Shown: positions 3-13,272 of the stretch, piece after piece
How the letters are laid out: each line of letters begins with the position of its first letter
Numbering within the stretch: position 1 is the stretch's first letter
Virus record (IMG/VR): IMGVR_UViG_2516143027_000005
Coordinates: 1 to 16,856 of that record
Length of the DNA stretch: 16,856 nucleotides
Strand: one strand, 5' to 3'
From: a virus
Lineage: Duplodnaviria > Heunggongvirae > Uroviricota > Caudoviricetes
Program-made: the position numbers and the translations under genes
Notes under the pieces: model-generated
What the model saw: only the letters and a program-made list of their open reading frames with translations
The model's database searches: none
What the model was told of the DNA's origin: nothing

Positions 3-389
3 CGTGGCAATAACTGTCCCCTTGCTGAAAATTTGTACCAACAAGGGAAAGACAAATCAGCTGATGGAGATACCAGAACGGATATCACCCGCATGGATGA
101 CAAGGAGTTGCACGATTACCTGCACAGTATGAGCAAAAAAGAGCGCCGGGAACTGGCAGCAAGGTTACGCCTGGTGAAACCGAAACGGCGTAAAGACTAC
201 AAACAGCGAATTACAGACCATCAGCGACTGCAGCTCGTGTATGAACTGAAGTCCAGGGGATTTGATGGCAGCGAGAAAGAGGTCGATTTACTGCTTCGCG
301 GCGGCAGTATTCCGTCAGGAGCAGGCCTACGTATCTTCTATCGGAACCAGCGTTTGCAGGAAGATGATAAGTGGCGAAACCTGTATTAA
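3..389 (+). CDS. hypothetical protein, probably 5-prime truncated by the window edge; basic K/R-rich region
   Basis: Frame is open from the first base of the window to a stop at 387-389. The ORF track starts it at a TTG (33-35). No motif recognised. Confidence 0.4.
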
Positions 390-483
390 TTACGCGGGTT
401 AACAATTCGTGCTCTTAATAATACCAGGTATATCAGGCTGATGAGCGTAAAAAAACGTTTTACATCAGTAAGATTATTATATA

Positions 484-499
484 CTGTAAATATAAACAG
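484..499. promoter_or_regulatory. LexA (SOS) box, CTGT-N8-ACAG
   Basis: Sequence ctgtaaatataaacag is a perfect match to the CTGT-N8-ACAG LexA consensus with an AT-rich centre. It lies about 45 bp upstream of the 542 ATG and overlaps candidate -35 (ttacat 460-465) and -10-like AT-rich hexamers. Confidence 0.65.
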
Positions 500-541
500 T
501 GGTTATGTGTACAGTATTGCTTTGGTGTCATAGGAGGAAAG

Positions 542-730
542 ATGCAGGACTATTTTTTGGAGTCTTTGAAGCTTCAGCGCATTGATTTTTTTCTTAAGCT
601 TGTAGCGGCTAGTGAGTGTAGTGATGAAGAGAAGGGGCTGGCCCTGCAGTGGGTTTCTGAACTGACAGATGAACTCATGGCAAAAATCAGAACTCACGAA
701 TACAACCGCTCAATGGATGTCATCAGCTGA
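542..730 (+). CDS. small hypothetical protein (62 aa), first gene of the LexA-controlled operon; possibly a Tum antirepressor N-terminal-domain analogue
   Basis: Strong RBS (aggagg at 530-535) before the ATG at 542; sits directly downstream of the LexA box. No recognisable motif. Confidence 0.55.
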   Translation: MQDYFLESLKLQRIDFFLKLVAASECSDEEKGLALQWVSELTDELMAKIRTHEYNRSMDVIS

Positions 731-740
731 GGTGACTTTT

Positions 741-974
741 ATGCGCATTGAAATAATGATCGATAAAGAGCAGAAGATTAGCCAGTCTACACTGGACGCC
801 CTTGAATCCGAGCTTTACCGCAATCTGCGCCCCCTGTATCCCAAAACGGTAATTCGTATCCGCAAAGGTAGCTCTAACGGTGTGGAACTGACCGGACTGC
901 AACTGGACGAAGAAAGAAAACAAGTGATGACAATTATGCAGAAGGTGTGGGAAGACGACAGCTGGCTGCATTAA
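741..974 (+). CDS. dinI: DinI-family protein (77 aa), prophage-encoded
   Basis: Starts MRIEI, contains DALESEL and ends KVWEDDSWLH, matching E. coli DinI (MRIEV...DALAGEL...ETWESADDWF) as I recall it. RBS gaggtg at 729-734. The ORF-track start at 669 overlaps the upstream gene and is less likely. Confidence 0.8.
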   Translation: MRIEIMIDKEQKISQSTLDALESELYRNLRPLYPKTVIRIRKGSSNGVELTGLQLDEERKQVMTIMQKVWEDDSWLH

Positions 975-1108
975 GAAACGTTGCTGGCGTCTGAACTTGT
1001 TTCTGGCGTCAGCAAGGTTGAACAACGAGCTGTGCGAGGCGTTAGCTCTGTAGTGCATGTCTATGCCGCATGAGATCGCATGATCGTTTGAGGATCGTTT
1101 TTGCTAAG

Positions 1109-1135
1109 GCCCGCCAGAACTGGCGGGCTTTTGCG
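1109..1135 (+). terminator. rho-independent terminator of the SOS operon
   Basis: GC-rich stem gcccgcca (1109-1116) / tggcgggc (1121-1128), loop gaac, followed by tttt. Confidence 0.6.
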
Positions 1136-1177
1136 TAGATCATGCAGGTGCATGAAAACCACTACATAAAGCGGGCA

Positions 1178-1196
1178 GGCGTGGCGGGGATACGAG
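1178..1196. other. candidate cos (cohesive end) site
   Basis: ggcgtggcggggatacgag followed by cgcgcgctg. This resembles the P2 left end as I remember it (GGCGAGGCGGGGAAAGCAC then TGCGCGCTG): 14 of 19 positions plus the shared flank. Confidence 0.45.
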
Positions 1197-1212
1197 CGCG
1201 CGCTGTGCGTGG

Positions 1213-1241
1213 TTGTAAAAGGAAATTGTTTTCGGTATAAC
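1213..1241 (+). promoter_or_regulatory. putative sigma70 promoter for the island 1 genes
   Basis: ttgtaa (1213-1218), 17-nt spacer, tataac (1236-1241), about 24 bp upstream of the 1265 ATG. Confidence 0.3.
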
Positions 1242-1264
1242 CACTTCCATTAGAAGGAGAACTT

Positions 1265-1510
1265 ATGAAAATTTTTGCAATAGTCATTACATGTATACTG
1301 GCATTGATTGCAGGATTATGGCTTTACATGGATCCTGGTTTTGATTCTATTGTTGCATTTTTGGCTGCAGTTAGCGCTTTAGCTGGATTACTTATCACTA
1401 CAAAAAATAAATATAATTCTATGAGTCAATCAGTTGGTGATAATTCAATTGGTGTCCAGGCTGGCGGTGATATTAAAATTGATTGTATAAATACAGGTGA
1501 TAAAAAATAA
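1265..1510 (+). CDS. small membrane protein (81 aa) with two predicted transmembrane helices
   Basis: RBS aggaga 7 nt before the ATG. Hydrophobic stretches IFAIVITCILALIAGLWLY and IVAFLAAVSALAGLLITT, then a polar C-terminal tail. AT-rich codons. Confidence 0.6.
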   Translation: MKIFAIVITCILALIAGLWLYMDPGFDSIVAFLAAVSALAGLLITTKNKYNSMSQSVGDNSIGVQAGGDIKIDCINTGDKK

Positions 1511-1519
1511 GGAGGATAT

Positions 1520-2377
1520 ATGTTTAGTGATAAACAAAAGCAACAAATAGGTAATAATTCGTATGCAATTCAAGCTGGAAATAATGTAAATGTTTCAGGG
1601 ATGTCGTTTTCCGAGGTTAGAGAACTATTCAACATTCTCTTCGAAAATCAGTTCCCAAAATTGAAAGATGTTGCTTATGCTGCAGCTCAAGAGAATGCAA
1701 AAGATTTTGAAGAGCGTGTCGTTTCGGATTTAACAAAAAACGTTGATAGATTGATTATTGATAAATTTTGCGATCCGGACGTTCAGGCTACATTGACTGA
1801 GGCATTAAAGTCATCAGCCAGAAAGGGAAAGAAAGCTAATATGGATGTGCTTTCTCAGTTGTTAGTTGAACGAGTCTCCAATAACAATGACGATTTTAGA
1901 GATATAGTCTTAACGGAGGCAGTTACTGTCGTTCCAAAGTTAACACAGCAACAAATATCACTTATAACGATAGTTTTTCTTCTCAAGAATGTTGAGATCA
2001 AAGATCCTGTTAATGGTGTTCGATTGGATTTGTTGGAGCACAATTTTAGAAATTTTGAACCAATGTATACTAATGGGTTTAATTTGTCTCAAGCCCAGAT
2101 ATATCACATTCAATATGCAGGGGCTTGTTCATGGAATACTTTTTTAGGGATAGATGTTGAAGACTATTTCATGGATAAATATCCGACTGATATAAAAGAT
2201 AAGAGTGCGTATATTTCAAATCTTAAGTTAGTTGCCCCTCATGTGTCTGCATTTTTAGAAAATTTTTCAAAGAGCAACTATCAAGGAATTGAACTAACAA
2301 GTGTAGGGCAAGCAATTGCTCTAGCCGTTATTTCAAGATACGTAGGAAGATTGGATTATAATATTTGGTTAAAATAG
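1520..2377 (+). CDS. hypothetical protein (285 aa), unknown function; candidate effector partnered with the upstream membrane protein
   Basis: RBS aggagg before the ATG at 1520, 9 bp after the upstream stop, so an operon arrangement. No Walker A or other motif recognised. Followed by a terminator. Confidence 0.6.
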   Translation: MFSDKQKQQIGNNSYAIQAGNNVNVSGMSFSEVRELFNILFENQFPKLKDVAYAAAQENAKDFEERVVSDLTKNVDRLIIDKFCDPDVQATLTEALKSSARKGKKANMDVLSQLLVERVSNNNDDFRDIVLTEAVTVVPKLTQQQISLITIVFLLKNVEIKDPVNGVRLDLLEHNFRNFEPMYTNGFNLSQAQIYHIQYAGACSWNTFLGIDVEDYFMDKYPTDIKDKSAYISNLKLVAPHVSAFLENFSKSNYQGIELTSVGQAIALAVISRYVGRLDYNIWLK

Positions 2378-2400
2378 GGCAGTATCTGCCCTATTTTATT
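2376..2400. terminator. bidirectional terminator hairpin between convergent genes (285-aa ORF and Q)
   Basis: Stem agggcag (2376-2382) / ctgccct (2386-2392), loop tat, with T-rich tracts on both strands. Confidence 0.55.
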
Positions 2401-3427
2401 ATAATTCATATGGTAGGAAAGAGATTATTTCATCACTCAACCATTCATTAATTTCTTTGATTCGCTTTTGCAGCGGTATCAACTCGTTGCGGACAAAAAC
2501 CTTACTAGCTTTCTCCACATCCCCAAAACCCCCAACATTATTAGGCATAATCCCCATCATTTGCGGCGGCACGCGGTGTGCCGCCATCATGTCATCCCGG
2601 CTCACGTTCTTGATATTCAGAAACTCATCCTTCGCCGCGACCTCTGACAACGGGATGATCTGAAGCCCGTCCTTTTTGCCGTTAGGCGAGTACATAAACA
2701 GGTTGCGGAAGTTGCCAGGGCCTTTGGCGCTTTTCATCGCATTGCGGAGGTTGTTCACATCCTCCTGGTTCTGCGCAGCGTCGGTCATGTACATGATGAA
2801 GCCAGCATGACTGCCGTTAATGTAATACTTTCGACGGAACAGCGTGGCGGACTCATTGAGCAGGGCGGACGGAATGGCAGAAAGATAGCCGGGCAGGCCG
2901 TAGATCTCCTGGTTAATGTCCGGTTCCATCAGATGAAAAATGCTGCCTTTCGTGAACTGATACGGCTGGGTTGTCATACCGTATTGCACAAACCAGTAGG
3001 TATCCAGGTCTAACCCGCGTCGGGTGTATTTTGCCAGAGCAGGCTCAAGGGCGATAACTTCACCGAAGCGGTTCGTGCGTTTCTCCAGGTAGGCGTTACC
3101 AAATACCAGATAGTCCTGCACAAAACGGGTAAATGCCTGCTGGCTGAGCAGCGGGTGGGGGATGTAGGTACTGGTCAGAATGTTGCACTTTACTGCAATC
3201 GGGGAACTGTGATGCACGGCAGCGCGGAAGGTGCGCGCCAGTCCGTCAAAGCTGACGGGTGGTTCATACCAACGGTCCATCTGTACGCATTCCACATAGT
3301 CCAGCAGTTCACGGCGGTCCAGAACCGGAACGGGATCGCCGAAGCTGAATGCTTCGGCTGAAGTCTGGTTTTTATGCTGGATCTGATTCATCGCCGCTGC
3401 GCGGTTTTTCTTACTCTTTCCCATCAA
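2399..3427 (-). CDS. Q: portal protein (P2 gpQ-like)
   Basis: 342-aa ORF directly downstream of the terminase gene on the minus strand with an ATGA start/stop overlap. Size and position match P2 Q. Confidence 0.85.
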   Translation of the reverse strand: MMGKSKKNRAAAMNQIQHKNQTSAEAFSFGDPVPVLDRRELLDYVECVQMDRWYEPPVSFDGLARTFRAAVHHSSPIAVKCNILTSTYIPHPLLSQQAFTRFVQDYLVFGNAYLEKRTNRFGEVIALEPALAKYTRRGLDLDTYWFVQYGMTTQPYQFTKGSIFHLMEPDINQEIYGLPGYLSAIPSALLNESATLFRRKYYINGSHAGFIMYMTDAAQNQEDVNNLRNAMKSAKGPGNFRNLFMYSPNGKKDGLQIIPLSEVAAKDEFLNIKNVSRDDMMAAHRVPPQMMGIMPNNVGGFGDVEKASKVFVRNELIPLQKRIKEINEWLSDEIISFLPYEL

Positions 3428-11152: not shown

Positions 11153-11173
11153 AAGCCAGCCTTTATTTTTTTT
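11142..11173 (+). terminator. rho-independent terminator after S
   Basis: Stem ggctggc (11142-11148) / gccagcc (11155-11161), loop ataaaa containing the S stop codon, then a T-run 11162-11173. Confidence 0.6.
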
Positions 11174-12029
11174 ATGTGATGGCCCCTATCTTTTGATTGT
11201 AATAACTATAATCAGCATGTTCTTCTGTATAAAAAATCTCAAATGCAGACAAGATGTTTGCGTAAAAACTATCCTTGGATATAGAGGTTTTTTTATTGAT
11301 GGATGCCAAAAAGTTTGTTATAAATCTTAATGATGCAGAGAAAAGAAAGTGCCCTTTCACCCAATGATTTATAGATGTATTTTCTGGGAATTGAATGTTG
11401 TTTTTTTCTGCTAAACCATTAGTAGTAAACGATTCAGGTAGTCTATTGATATATTCATCTATTTTTTTCTTGCATATATTGTATGAATTTCTTGATTGCA
11501 TAAAACGATCACAGGAATCACCAATTACGGAGCATCCTAATTTATTTAAATGATTGTGAATATCTAGTATTATTAAGTTCTCAATGTTGCTATAGAAGTT
11601 AGAAAGCCAATTTCCTACATCTATTTCCTGCATTTTTTTTGTGCAAAAACGGCCTGTGTTTTTGAGTATGTGTGATATGATTTTTTCATCAATGATTGTG
11701 TTTTCTATTGAATATCCCTTTGTGTAAATAATATTTGTATGCTTTACTATGTTGTCAGAAAAATGGTTTAGATCCGAATCTCTGGCAACTATGGCGTTTA
11801 TTTCTCCTGAGGTTATTTTTTCGATATATGGTTGTAAGGCTTCACATCCACCAACATCTTGAACTTCTACATTAAAACGACCATTTTTTTTAAAAATTAT
11901 TTCCCAAAAAGCAATGTCATCTTCACCTTCAACATAGACCATAATATCAGCATCATAAAATAAACTGATCACATTTTCCGCTTCATTAGACCAAGAAAAG
12001 TTTTCTGCATTAGAATCATTGATTAGCAT
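11172..12029 (-). CDS. ariB: TOPRIM-like (DUF4435-type) putative nuclease, AriB-like
   Basis: 285 aa. N-terminal VYVEGEDD (E34/E36) and ARDSD (D84-x-D86) give the Glu plus DxD spacing typical of TOPRIM/OLD-family nucleases. Start overlaps the upstream ATPase gene by 14 bp. Confidence 0.6.
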   Translation of the reverse strand: MLINDSNAENFSWSNEAENVISLFYDADIMVYVEGEDDIAFWEIIFKKNGRFNVEVQDVGGCEALQPYIEKITSGEINAIVARDSDLNHFSDNIVKHTNIIYTKGYSIENTIIDEKIISHILKNTGRFCTKKMQEIDVGNWLSNFYSNIENLIILDIHNHLNKLGCSVIGDSCDRFMQSRNSYNICKKKIDEYINRLPESFTTNGLAEKNNIQFPENTSINHWVKGHFLFSASLRFITNFLASINKKTSISKDSFYANILSAFEIFYTEEHADYSYYNQKIGAIT

Positions 12030-13272
12030 TGACTAATCTCTCCATATTGAAAATGGCGTTTTTATATTTAGATGCAACTTCAGGAGAATGGGTTGCAGCA
12101 ATAATTTGTGCATTAGGATTTAATTTTTTTATGGCAGGGATAATATTTCTTTGCCATTGAATATGTAAGGAAAGCTCAGGCTCATCAGTTAGGAAAATAT
12201 ATTGTTGCCCTCTTTGTAAGAGGGTCTCAATGAATAAAATTAGCAGTTGTTTTTCACCAGAAGATAAACTTTCTAAAACTATTGGCCCATAGGTGTTATT
12301 TATGACTAACAATCCCGATTGAAAATGAAATTCTTTATCGGTGATAAAATTTCTTAGTATGCTTAAGAATTGTTCTATTGGAGAAAATATTTTTGATGTT
12401 TTCTCTTTTGAAGTTAATGACATTTTGATTATTTTTTGTGTTTTTCTCAATGCTTCGATCGAACGAATATCAAAGCCTCTTTCACTTTTATTCTTTAATT
12501 CCGAAATGGTATTATTAATTGTTTCAACATGAAAGCTGATTTTTTTACGAATGTTTTGATCAATAGCATTTAACTGTGTGTATGCATTAAGGAGGTTTTG
12601 TTTTTCTTCCTCTTTGTTAAAGTTAATGTTGTAAGCAGGATTCTCCATATCTTCCTTGCTATAAAGTATTGATGCCAGAACCTCTTTTTGTAGTTCTAAT
12701 GCGATATCTCTGGCTTTCTGGGATAGTTCAAGTTGATATTTTGTAAGTTCCTGTATTAATTCTGATAACTTATAGTCAACAGGGTTGATAAAACGAGAGC
12801 CATATTTATCTTTAACTTCAAAATCATCACTATTTCTTAATCTGTAAACAGATAAAGAAGAAAGCGAGACTAGTTTTGCTAGTTCTGTTCTTAGTTCTTC
12901 TGTTTCATCATGCACTCTACGTCTATAACTAAGAGATATTCTTCTATCATCAGTGTTAAATAAACGAATTGTGTGTTTTTTAGATGAAAGCTGATATTCT
13001 ATTTTGGAAAATGGAGATGTATCGCTTTCAAGTTTTTTGACTTTGATTGTTTTTGTCTTTTTTTTATCTTTAAGTTTTATTTCGGCACTATTGAAATCAG
13101 CATTGTTAATACTGTCCAAATCAAGGGATAATATTGAGTGCAGAAGGTTCATAAAGGTTGTTTTACCCGTGCCATTTCGGCCTATAATAATGTTTACATC
13201 ATCATTAAATGAGCAGGAACAGTTTAATCGCTGCCAAAAGCCATTAATTGTGACGCTTTGAATTTTATACAT
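12016..13272 (-). CDS. ariA: ABC-type (AAA_15/AAA_21-like) ATPase, AriA-like
   Basis: 418 aa. Walker A GRNGTGKTT at residues 31-39, ABC signature-like LSSGEKQ, Walker B/D-loop IFLTDEPELSLH and H-loop ATHSPE near the C-terminus. RBS aagga before the ATG. Confidence 0.65.
   Translation of the reverse strand: MYKIQSVTINGFWQRLNCSCSFNDDVNIIIGRNGTGKTTFMNLLHSILSLDLDSINNADFNSAEIKLKDKKKTKTIKVKKLESDTSPFSKIEYQLSSKKHTIRLFNTDDRRISLSYRRRVHDETEELRTELAKLVSLSSLSVYRLRNSDDFEVKDKYGSRFINPVDYKLSELIQELTKYQLELSQKARDIALELQKEVLASILYSKEDMENPAYNINFNKEEEKQNLLNAYTQLNAIDQNIRKKISFHVETINNTISELKNKSERGFDIRSIEALRKTQKIIKMSLTSKEKTSKIFSPIEQFLSILRNFITDKEFHFQSGLLVINNTYGPIVLESLSSGEKQLLILFIETLLQRGQQYIFLTDEPELSLHIQWQRNIIPAIKKLNPNAQIIAATHSPEVASKYKNAIFNMERLVNANQ

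What the first reader, a model, noticed from the sequence alone, without database searches (positions are those of the whole stretch)
440..1135. LexA-box-controlled operon: a Tum-like antirepressor module split into a 62-aa ORF and a DinI-family ORF
Seen in sequence: a perfect CTGT-N8-ACAG LexA box (484-499) overlaps promoter-like hexamers just upstream of a 62-aa ORF with a strong RBS, followed 10 bp later by a clear DinI-family gene and a terminator. The DinI reading frame is open upstream to 669, overlapping the first ORF by about 60 bp in a different frame. Established knowledge, from memory: in coliphage 186 the SOS-inducible antirepressor Tum is LexA-controlled, sits at this genome position and has a DinI-like C-terminal part. 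Inference: this is the prophage SOS-induction switch. The two ORFs could be a frameshifted single tum-like gene, whose combined length would approximate Tum, or a genuine two-gene arrangement.
Basis: partly seen in the sequence, partly recalled or inferred. Interest (0 to 1): 0.55.

Follow-up and report, generated by a model that had tools for sequence, protein, structure and literature searches.

The report
Split tum antirepressor–DinI SOS switch
This is the known DNA-damage induction switch of a Fels-2/186-type (P2-like) prophage: a LexA-repressed promoter driving a small antirepressor gene and a separate DinI-like gene, and the two-gene layout is normal, not a sequencing error.

Summary
A LexA box (482-501) overlaps a promoter. 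It is followed by a 62-codon ORF (542-730) with a strong ribosome-binding site, a DinI-family gene (741-974, Pfam E 1.3e-22) and a terminator-like hairpin.

- All 27 species-level loci with this DinI subtype carry two separate genes.
- ORF62 is always 62 codons with its own stop, and dN/dS is 0.05.
- The upstream open frame starting at ATG 669 is not conserved.

ORF62 is a true but distant homologue of the N-terminal half of 186 Tum. A Mixta intermediate links them (E 3e-15 to ORF62, 2e-9 to Tum). PSP3 TumA joins the same family (hhalign P 7e-6).

The arrangement is already published. Fels-2 and PSP3 tum are described as split by a stop codon. ORF62 is 61/62 identical to ECHS_RS04495, the tum gene of E. 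coli HS prophage DuoHS. Deleting that gene, or making lexA non-cleavable, abolishes mitomycin-C induction.

Two additions from this work:
- The operator is a colicin-type pair of overlapping LexA boxes, which 186 and PSP3 lack.
- Stand-alone antirepressor modules, not the fused 186 Tum, are the rule.

Interest is low: already known.

The parts
459..464 (+). -35 hexamer TTTACA of the tum promoter (p95 equivalent)
   Evidence: Read from the sequence. Conserved in 17/17 Fels-2-type loci with a fixed 17-nt spacer of variable sequence. Same layout as the annotated 186 p95. The strict consensus scan did not call it.
482..487 (+). -10 hexamer TACTGT, inside the distal LexA box
   Evidence: Identical hexamer and position to the annotated -10 of 186 p95. 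Invariant in the related loci.
482..501 (+). Distal (main) LexA box TACTGTAAATATAAACAGTG
   Evidence: 3 mismatches to the consensus; 0/200 shuffles match as well. CTGT/ACAG invariant in 44/44 related loci. Identical in DuoHS and Fels-2.
497..516 (+). Proximal, overlapping weak LexA box CAGTGGTTATGTGTACAGTA (colicin-type dual operator)
   Evidence: 22 nt (497-518) are identical to the operators of colicin N and pesticin. The right half TACAGT is conserved in 15/17 Fels-2-type loci. Absent from 186- and PSP3-type loci. Colicin dual boxes bind two LexA dimers (PMC2994835).
532..537 (+). Shine-Dalgarno AGGAGG for ORF62
   Evidence: Read from the sequence. AGGAGG(G)A is conserved upstream of the start codon in relatives.
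542..730 (+). tum / tumA-type antirepressor gene (62 aa; predicted helical hairpin)
   Evidence: 61/62 identical to ECHS_RS04495, the experimentally deleted tum of DuoHS. 98% identical to Fels-2 STM2728. dN/dS 0.05. Linked to 186 Tum residues 5-52 through the Mixta intermediate. AlphaFold2 pLDDT 89.8, helices 2-23 and 28-61.
729..735 (+). Shine-Dalgarno GAGGTGA for the DinI-like gene, overlapping the ORF62 stop codon
   Evidence: Read from the sequence. A purine-rich SD is present in the 9-17 nt spacer of nearly all of the 17 relatives examined.
741..974 (+). tumB-type DinI-family gene (77 aa)
   Evidence: Pfam PF06183 E 1.3e-22. phrog_189, RecA filament binding protein DinI, E 2.5e-29. 99% identical to Fels-2 STM2726.1, 78% to PSP3 TumB, 42% to the 186 Tum C-terminal half. 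dN/dS 0.079.
981..1015 (+). Strong hairpin just after the tumB stop, with no U tract; start of the variable cargo region
   Evidence: RNA fold. Homology with Fels-2 and DuoHS ends exactly at the tumB stop codon.
1106..1135 (+). Terminator-like GC-rich hairpin followed by UUUU
   Evidence: RNA fold of 972-1145: z = -4.9, stem of about 11 bp. Not called by the scanner, which requires 5 T.

Best explanation
This is the SOS-induction operon of a Fels-2/186-type P2-like prophage.

In a lysogen, LexA occupies an operator that overlaps the -10 element of the promoter and keeps the operon silent. The operator consists of a strong distal box at 482-501 and an overlapping weak proximal box at 497-516.

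DNA damage leads to RecA-stimulated LexA self-cleavage, and the two genes are then transcribed together.
- The 62-aa product is a helical hairpin, the stand-alone equivalent of the N-terminal half of 186 Tum and of PSP3 TumA. It is the antirepressor: it binds the prophage's 186-type CI repressor, blocks operator binding, and switches on the lytic promoter.
- The 77-aa product is the equivalent of PSP3 TumB and of the short internal-start product of 186 tum. It is a DinI-family RecA-filament binder that modulates the SOS signal.

Shown here: the anatomy, its conservation, the homology, and purifying selection. Shown by others in a 98%-identical orthologue: both tum and cleavable LexA are required for mitomycin-C induction. 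Inferred: direct binding to CI, the role of TumB, and occupancy of the second LexA box.
For: Anatomy:
- The elements are at the stated coordinates.
- The locus sits between the C-terminus of replication protein gpA (window 3-389, 95% identical to DuoHS gpA) and the portal gene Q. This is the position of tum in 186, PSP3, Fels-2 and DuoHS.

Two genes are the norm:
- In 48 species-level loci, every DinI gene of this subtype (ATG start, MRIEIMIDK) is separated from the upstream module. Every 186-subtype DinI part (GTG start) is fused.
- ORF62 is always 62 codons. The stop codon varies among TGA, TAA and TAG, and the spacer is 9-17 nt, nearly always with its own SD.
- Median dN/dS is 0.05 for ORF62 and 0.079 for TumB.

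Homology of ORF62 to Tum:
- The Mixta module (locus L029) is 41% identical to ORF62 (E 3e-15) and 31% identical to the 186 Tum N-terminus (E 2e-9).
- The two families align without gaps and in register.
- PSP3 TumA joins the family profile with hhalign probability 85%, P 6.7e-6.

Function:
- ECHS_RS04495 is the gene deleted as 'tum' in DuoHS. The tum deletion and lexA(Ind-) each abolish mitomycin-C-induced lysis (PMC12055606).
- ECHS_RS04495 is the 62-aa gene directly upstream of the DinI-like gene. It is 61/62 identical to ORF62, and its promoter-operator core (-35 to the distal box) is identical; the proximal-box spacer differs at 3 positions.
- The literature states that Fels-2 and PSP3 tum are split by a stop codon, and that the PSP3 upstream gene is the antirepressor (PMC3121763).
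- 186 Tum inhibits CI after LexA-regulated p95 is derepressed (PMC7708051).
- DuoHS carries a 186-type CI (33% identical to 186 CI, E 9e-38).
Against: - ORF62 shows no direct pairwise BLASTP similarity to 186 Tum or to PSP3 TumA. A first profile-profile comparison of the two families gave only P 1e-3. Homology therefore rests on an intermediate sequence and on broader profiles.
- The CI repressor of this particular prophage lies outside the window and was not seen.
- The promoter hexamers are weak, matching 8 of 12 positions, and were not called by the scanner.
- Nothing here was tested for LexA binding or for interaction between ORF62 and CI.
- The role of the DinI-like product in induction is not established for this lineage.
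Confidence: 0.93

Rival explanations
1. The two ORFs are the halves of a single 186-type tum gene broken by a frameshift, either a sequencing error or a recent pseudogenising indel around 669-730.
For: The DinI frame is open back to ATG 669 and overlaps ORF62 by about 60 nt. The combined length, 62+77 aa, is close to the 146 aa of 186 Tum.
Against: The same two-gene layout occurs in Fels-2, PSP3, DuoHS, 51 phage records covering at least 80% of the region, 730 E. coli genomes with near-full-length matches, and 27 species-level loci. The upstream open frame is only 1-33 codons in the split loci of relatives and is not conserved. The frame relationship between the two genes differs among relatives (0, +1 or +2), and the stop codon identity varies. 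dN/dS is 0.05 and 0.079, so both genes are under purifying selection. Among 150 family representatives, 141 are 110 aa or shorter.
Confidence: 0.01
2. ORF62 is an unrelated small SOS-induced accessory gene, for example a toxin, an exclusion factor or a regulator of another target. On this reading, induction of this prophage works differently, for example through RecA-dependent repressor cleavage or through the DinI-like protein.
For: Pfam has no family for ORF62, and PHROGs lists phrog_698 as function unknown. There is no direct BLASTP similarity to Tum. The predicted helical hairpin has no significant PDB fold neighbour.
Against: Deletion of the 98%-identical orthologue abolishes induction. 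Homology to the 186 Tum N-terminus and to PSP3 TumA holds through an intermediate sequence and profiles. Position and LexA control are the same as for tum.
Confidence: 0.04
3. The LexA-box match is fortuitous, and the operon is expressed constitutively or under phage control rather than SOS control.
For: A bare CTGT-N8-ACAG motif is expected 0.2 times per window by chance. The promoter hexamers are weak.
Against: The 20-mer match was never reached in 200 shuffles. The box is invariant at its core in 44/44 loci while the flanking sequence diverges. It overlaps the -10 hexamer, as in the annotated 186 p95. A lexA(Ind-) host cannot induce DuoHS, whose distal box is identical.
Confidence: 0.02

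Closest known systems
E. coli HS prophage DuoHS tum (ECHS_RS04495) plus DinI-like ECHS_RS04500; Salmonella Fels-2 STM2728 plus STM2726.1
   Same: The two genes are essentially identical: 61/62 aa for tum, 98% and 99% identity to the Fels-2 pair. The promoter, distal LexA box and ribosome-binding site are identical. The position between gpA and the portal gene is the same. In DuoHS, both tum and cleavable LexA are required for mitomycin-C induction. The Fels-2 split is described in the literature.
   Different: The DNA downstream differs. Fels-2 and DuoHS carry an orf97-like gene after the DinI gene. The window instead has two hairpins and a different low-GC cargo; homology breaks at the tumB stop codon.
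Salmonella phage PSP3 tumA / tumB
   Same: A LexA box, then a roughly 60-aa antirepressor gene, then a separate 77-aa DinI-like gene. TumB is 78% identical to the window's DinI-like protein. TumA belongs to the same superfamily (hhalign P 6.7e-6).
   Different: The TumA sequence type is very divergent, at about 22% identity with no BLASTP hit. In PSP3 the two genes are in the same frame, 3 nt apart. PSP3 has a single LexA box. The PSP3 CI is only 35% identical to the DuoHS CI and has a duplicated N-terminal domain.
Coliphage 186 Tum (p95-tum SOS operon)
   Same: A LexA box overlaps the -10 hexamer TACTGT. The antirepressor module is N-terminal and the DinI module C-terminal. The locus is at the same genome position. 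The internal GTG start in 186 yields a 77-aa DinI-like product equivalent to TumB.
   Different: In 186 the two modules are fused in one 146-aa protein. The N-terminal module is only about 21% identical to ORF62, and homology is seen only through intermediates. 186 has a single LexA box and a shorter leader.
Colicin and pesticin promoters with two overlapping SOS boxes
   Same: The operator architecture is the same, and 22 nt (CAGTGGTTATGTGTACAGTATT) are identical to the operators of cna and pst. In colicins the pair binds two LexA dimers and gives very tight repression (PMC2994835).
   Different: The downstream genes are unrelated. In colicins the -10 element lies upstream of the boxes; here it lies within the distal box. 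The distal box here is closer to consensus (ACAG rather than CCAG).
Gifsy-prophage LexA-regulated dinI-antirepressor operons (GfoA, GftA)
   Same: A LexA-controlled operon pairs a DinI homologue with a small antirepressor that binds a non-cleavable repressor (PMC3121763).
   Different: The gene order is reversed, with dinI first. Both the antirepressor and the repressor belong to unrelated families.

Membership tests
Tum / TumA antirepressor module (186 Tum N-terminal half) | Sequence homology to the N-terminal half of 186 Tum or to PSP3 TumA | tested here: met
   Direct BLASTP is negative. The Mixta intermediate links both: E 3e-15 to ORF62 and E 2e-9 to Tum. The families align without gaps and in register. 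TumA matches the superfamily profile with P 6.7e-6, probability 85%.
Tum / TumA antirepressor module (186 Tum N-terminal half) | Expressed from a LexA-repressed promoter located between replication gene A and the cos/portal end of a P2/186-like genome | tested here: met
   The box overlaps the -10 hexamer. gpA C-terminus lies upstream and the portal gene downstream. Actual LexA binding is not testable here.
Tum / TumA antirepressor module (186 Tum N-terminal half) | Required for SOS induction of the prophage | not testable with these tools
   Shown genetically for the 61/62-identical DuoHS gene ECHS_RS04495. Not tested for this prophage.
Tum / TumA antirepressor module (186 Tum N-terminal half) | A cognate 186-type CI repressor in the same phage, bound and inactivated by the protein | tested here: inconclusive
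   The CI gene lies outside the window. The near-identical DuoHS prophage has a 186-type CI (33% identity, E 9e-38). Binding is not testable here.
DinI family (PF06183) | Match to the Pfam DinI model above its gathering score, over the whole domain, in a protein of about 80 aa | tested here: met
   80.3 bits against a cut-off of 24.2, model positions 1-63 of 63, 77 aa. phrog_189 E 2.5e-29.
DinI family (PF06183) | Binds RecA filaments and modulates the SOS response | not testable with these tools
   Inferred from family membership and from the 186 GenBank notes ('modulates SOS induction').
LexA (SOS) operator | 20-bp palindrome close to TACTG(TA)5CAGTA, overlapping a promoter and conserved in orthologous loci | tested here: met
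   3 mismatches, 0/200 shuffles. Core invariant in 44/44 loci. Overlaps the -10 hexamer as in 186 p95.
Colicin-type dual overlapping SOS boxes | A second 20-mer that overlaps the first by 5 nt and has a conserved right half-site | tested here: met
   Box at 497-516. 22 nt identical to the cna and pst operators. TACAGT conserved in 15/17 Fels-2-type loci.
Colicin-type dual overlapping SOS boxes | Cooperative binding of two LexA dimers | not testable with these tools
   Known for colicin operators (PMC2994835). Not tested for tum promoters.
Frameshifted pseudogene of a fused tum | Relatives carry one continuous ORF, and selection on the fragments is relaxed | tested here: not met
   The split is universal for this subtype. 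dN/dS is 0.05 and 0.079.

The most novel reading that the evidence does not exclude
Fels-2-type tum promoters, unlike those of 186 and PSP3, carry a colicin-type pair of overlapping LexA boxes. The proximal box and its flank, 22 nt in all, are identical to the colicin N and pesticin operators. If both boxes are occupied cooperatively, as in colicin operons, this prophage lineage would have a tighter, higher-threshold, late-SOS induction switch than 186. The shared operator could also reflect exchange of a regulatory cassette between Col plasmids and P2-like phages. I could not establish whether this has been reported: Bunny et al. 2002 was not readable here.
Probability: 0.45. Interest if true: 0.35.

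Novelty: already known. Interest (0 to 1): 0.15.

Why it matters
The locus decides whether this widespread prophage type stays dormant or kills its host after DNA damage. Homologous regions occur in 1143 of 5426 complete E. coli genomes.

There is no new biology here, because the switch is described for 186, PSP3, Fels-2 and DuoHS. The practical value is in annotation.
- RefSeq, Pfam and PHROGs still label the 62-aa gene 'hypothetical' or 'unknown function', although it is the experimentally validated tum antirepressor.
- Gene callers sometimes extend it or the DinI gene wrongly.

The family survey also shows that the textbook fused 186 Tum is the exception. The dual LexA operator is a small, testable lead on how induction thresholds differ among P2-like prophages.

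Tried and rejected
- Direct BLASTP of ORF62 against 186 Tum and PSP3 TumA found no alignment. Homology needed an intermediate sequence and profiles.
- A first hhalign of the two close-relative families gave only P 1e-3, probability 20%, because the families have low diversity.
- The hairpin at 719-736, which spans the ORF62 stop and the tumB SD and was flagged by the terminator scan, was considered as a translational-coupling element. It was rejected because it is not conserved outside the closest relatives.
- The 101-aa extended DinI ORF starting at ATG 669 was rejected because the upstream frame is not conserved.
- A PDB fold search with the confident ORF62 model gave only generic helical hairpins; no hit reached E 1e-3.
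- Rfam found nothing in the window.
- The literature search for 'tumA/tumB' by word start was useless. Bunny et al. 2002 (PMC151935) is not held.
- The strict sigma-70 scanner called no promoter. The promoter assignment rests on analogy with the annotated 186 p95 and on conservation.

Full report
**What is in the sequence**

Window 3-389 encodes the last 128 residues of the P2/186-type replication endonuclease gpA. It is 95% identical to the protein of E. coli HS prophage DuoHS.

After a 152-nt gap come the following elements:
- TTTACA (459-464), a 17-nt spacer, and TACTGT (482-487).
- The 20-mer TACTGTAAATATAAACAGTG (482-501).
- AGGAGG (532-537).
- A 62-codon ORF (542-730).
- GAGGTGA (729-735).
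- A 77-codon ORF (741-974).
- A strong hairpin without a U tract (981-1015).
- A GC-rich hairpin followed by UUUU (1106-1135).

The portal gene Q follows on the minus strand at 2399-3427.

The bare CTGT-N8-ACAG motif is not rare by chance: 0.2 are expected per window. The full 20-mer, with 3 mismatches to the LexA consensus, was never matched in 200 shuffles. The 77-aa ORF is a full-length DinI-family protein (Pfam E 1.3e-22).

**Are two genes the norm?**

The 751-nt region matches 67 phage records, 51 of them over at least 80% of its length. These include Fels-2 and many Klebsiella and Escherichia P2-like phages. It also matches 1143 of 5426 complete E. coli genomes. These records annotate 'hypothetical protein' plus 'DinI-like family protein'.

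- Fels-2 carries STM2728 (62 aa, 98% identical) and STM2726.1 (99% identical).
- PSP3 has the pair annotated as tumA ('similar to 5' end 186 tum; UV induction of prophage') and tumB ('similar to dinI and 3' end of 186 tum').
- 186 has a single 146-aa tum. Its annotated internal starts include a GTG that yields exactly the DinI-like 77 aa.

Using an alignment of the DinI-like parts I fetched 48 loci, one per bacterial species. They show a clean dichotomy.
- About 17 loci of the 186 subtype (GTG start, VKVNITLDK) are fused into roughly 146-aa ORFs.
- All 27 or so loci of the Fels-2/PSP3 subtype (ATG start, MRIEIMIDK) are preceded by a separate 60-72-aa ORF.
- In that second group the DinI frame is closed 1-33 codons upstream, with no conservation.

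In 17 loci with the Fels-2-type module, the ORF is always 62 codons. The stop is TGA, TAA or TAG, and the spacer is 9-17 nt, nearly always with its own SD. Synonymous sites are near saturation (for example 24.5 of 37 differ), while non-synonymous changes are few. Median dN/dS is 0.05 for ORF62 and 0.079 for the DinI-like gene. The frameshift hypothesis is refuted.

**Is ORF62 really Tum-like?**

Direct BLASTP against 186 Tum or PSP3 TumA finds nothing. A first profile-profile comparison of the two close families gave P 1e-3, aligned in register over residues 4-43.

The fetched loci supplied intermediates.
- The Mixta module (L029) is 41% identical to ORF62 (E 3e-15) and 31% identical to 186 Tum residues 5-52 (E 2e-9).
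- Pantoea and Rosenbergiella carry 186-type modules that are nevertheless split from a Fels-2-type DinI gene.
- The two families align without gaps, sharing E7, R13, L20, C26, A34 and E40.

A profile of both families, searched against 1.84 billion cluster representatives, found 153 clusters at E up to 1e-3. Of the best 150, 141 are 110 aa or shorter (median 67.5 aa), and only three are genuine fusions with a DinI part. The PSP3 TumA family matches this wider profile with hhalign probability 85%, P 6.7e-6.

AlphaFold2 predicts a confident helical hairpin: helices 2-23 and 28-61, pLDDT 89.8. It has no significant solved-structure neighbour.

The N-terminal modules are far more divergent (about 20% identity) than the DinI parts (42-78%). 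This parallels the 33-35% identity among the three CI repressors. That fits a specificity module co-evolving with its repressor; this last point is inference.

**What is already known**

- Lemire, Figueroa-Bossi and Bossi 2011 state that Tum looks like an antirepressor fused to DinI. [quoted passage not shown] They cite Bunny, Liu and Roth 2002, whose title reports lexA-null lethality due to Fels-2 (PMC3121763).
- The Phollow study deleted 'tum (locus tag ECHS_RS04495)' in DuoHS. Neither the tum deletion nor lexA(Ind-) cells lyse after mitomycin C (PMC12055606).
- In the E. coli HS RefSeq record, ECHS_RS04495 is the 189-nt 'hypothetical protein' gene directly upstream of the DinI-like ECHS_RS04500. 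It is 61/62 identical to ORF62. The -35 hexamer, distal LexA box and ribosome-binding site are identical; the proximal-box spacer differs at 3 positions.
- For 186, Tum is the LexA-controlled anti-CI factor (PMC7708051).

The function of this locus is therefore established by experiment in an essentially identical orthologue.

Downstream of the main box, all Fels-2-type loci keep a conserved TACAGT 16 nt after the first ACAGT (15 of 17 loci). This forms a second, overlapping 20-mer, CAGTGGTTATGTGTACAGTA (497-516).

A search of plasmids with 455-545 returned 845 records, mostly small mobilizable plasmids, matching only the operator. In the two hits I inspected, the match lies just upstream of colicin N (cna) and pesticin (pst). 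Twenty-two nucleotides are identical to the window.

[quoted passage not shown] These bind two LexA dimers and give no detectable basal expression (PMC2994835). The reported heterology indices for cna are 7.55 (distal) and 11.61 (proximal).

186-type, PSP3-type and the intermediate loci have a single box and a shorter leader. Whether the second box is functional in the phage is untested.

**Verdict**

The 'frameshifted gene' alternative is wrong, and the finding is already known biology.

The residual value is threefold:
- An annotation gap: the gene is still listed as hypothetical or of unknown function in RefSeq, Pfam and PHROGs.
- Stand-alone modules, not the fused 186 Tum, are the rule.
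- The colicin-type dual operator is a modest, testable lead.

Noticed in passing
window 497-516 (with 482-501): A second, overlapping weak LexA box makes the tum operator a colicin-type dual SOS operator. 22 nt are identical to the colicin N and pesticin operators. It is conserved in Fels-2-type loci and absent from 186- and PSP3-type loci.
   Followed up: partly
window 975-2398: A low-GC (33-35%) cargo island lies between the tumB stop and the portal gene. It holds an 81-aa predicted membrane protein (1265-1510, phrog_27656) and a 285-aa protein (1520-2377, phrog_19542), neither with a Pfam or PADLOC match. Relatives carry different cargo in this slot: a TIR-domain protein, a Hypoth_Ymh protein, or orf97-like genes. 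Homology with Fels-2 and DuoHS breaks exactly at the tumB stop codon. It may be an uncharacterised defence or exclusion module at the P2 tin/old-position hotspot.
   Followed up: partly
window 11172-13272 (minus strand): A two-gene insertion among the tail genes encodes a PARIS anti-phage system: AriA (418 aa, AAA_15 ATPase; PADLOC AriA E 2e-38) and AriB (285 aa, DUF4435; PADLOC AriB E 2e-21).
   Followed up: partly
L026, L027, L031 (Pantoea, Rosenbergiella) and L029 (Mixta), about 200 nt upstream of position 1501 in each locus: These loci carry 186-type or intermediate antirepressor modules as stand-alone genes, paired with a Fels-2/PSP3-type DinI gene. The N-terminal module and the DinI module have therefore been shuffled, and fused or split, more than once.
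   Followed up: partly
window 441-533 and homologues (for example L001 2552-2842): Public gene calls for the tum orthologue often start far upstream, giving 84-106-aa products that read through the promoter and LexA box. In some records small indels join the 30-aa ORF at 441-533 to tum. These are annotation artefacts.
   Followed up: no
window 719-736: A 6-bp hairpin encloses the ORF62 stop codon and the tumB Shine-Dalgarno sequence, which suggests translational coupling. It is not conserved outside the closest relatives, so it is probably a chance feature.
   Followed up: yes
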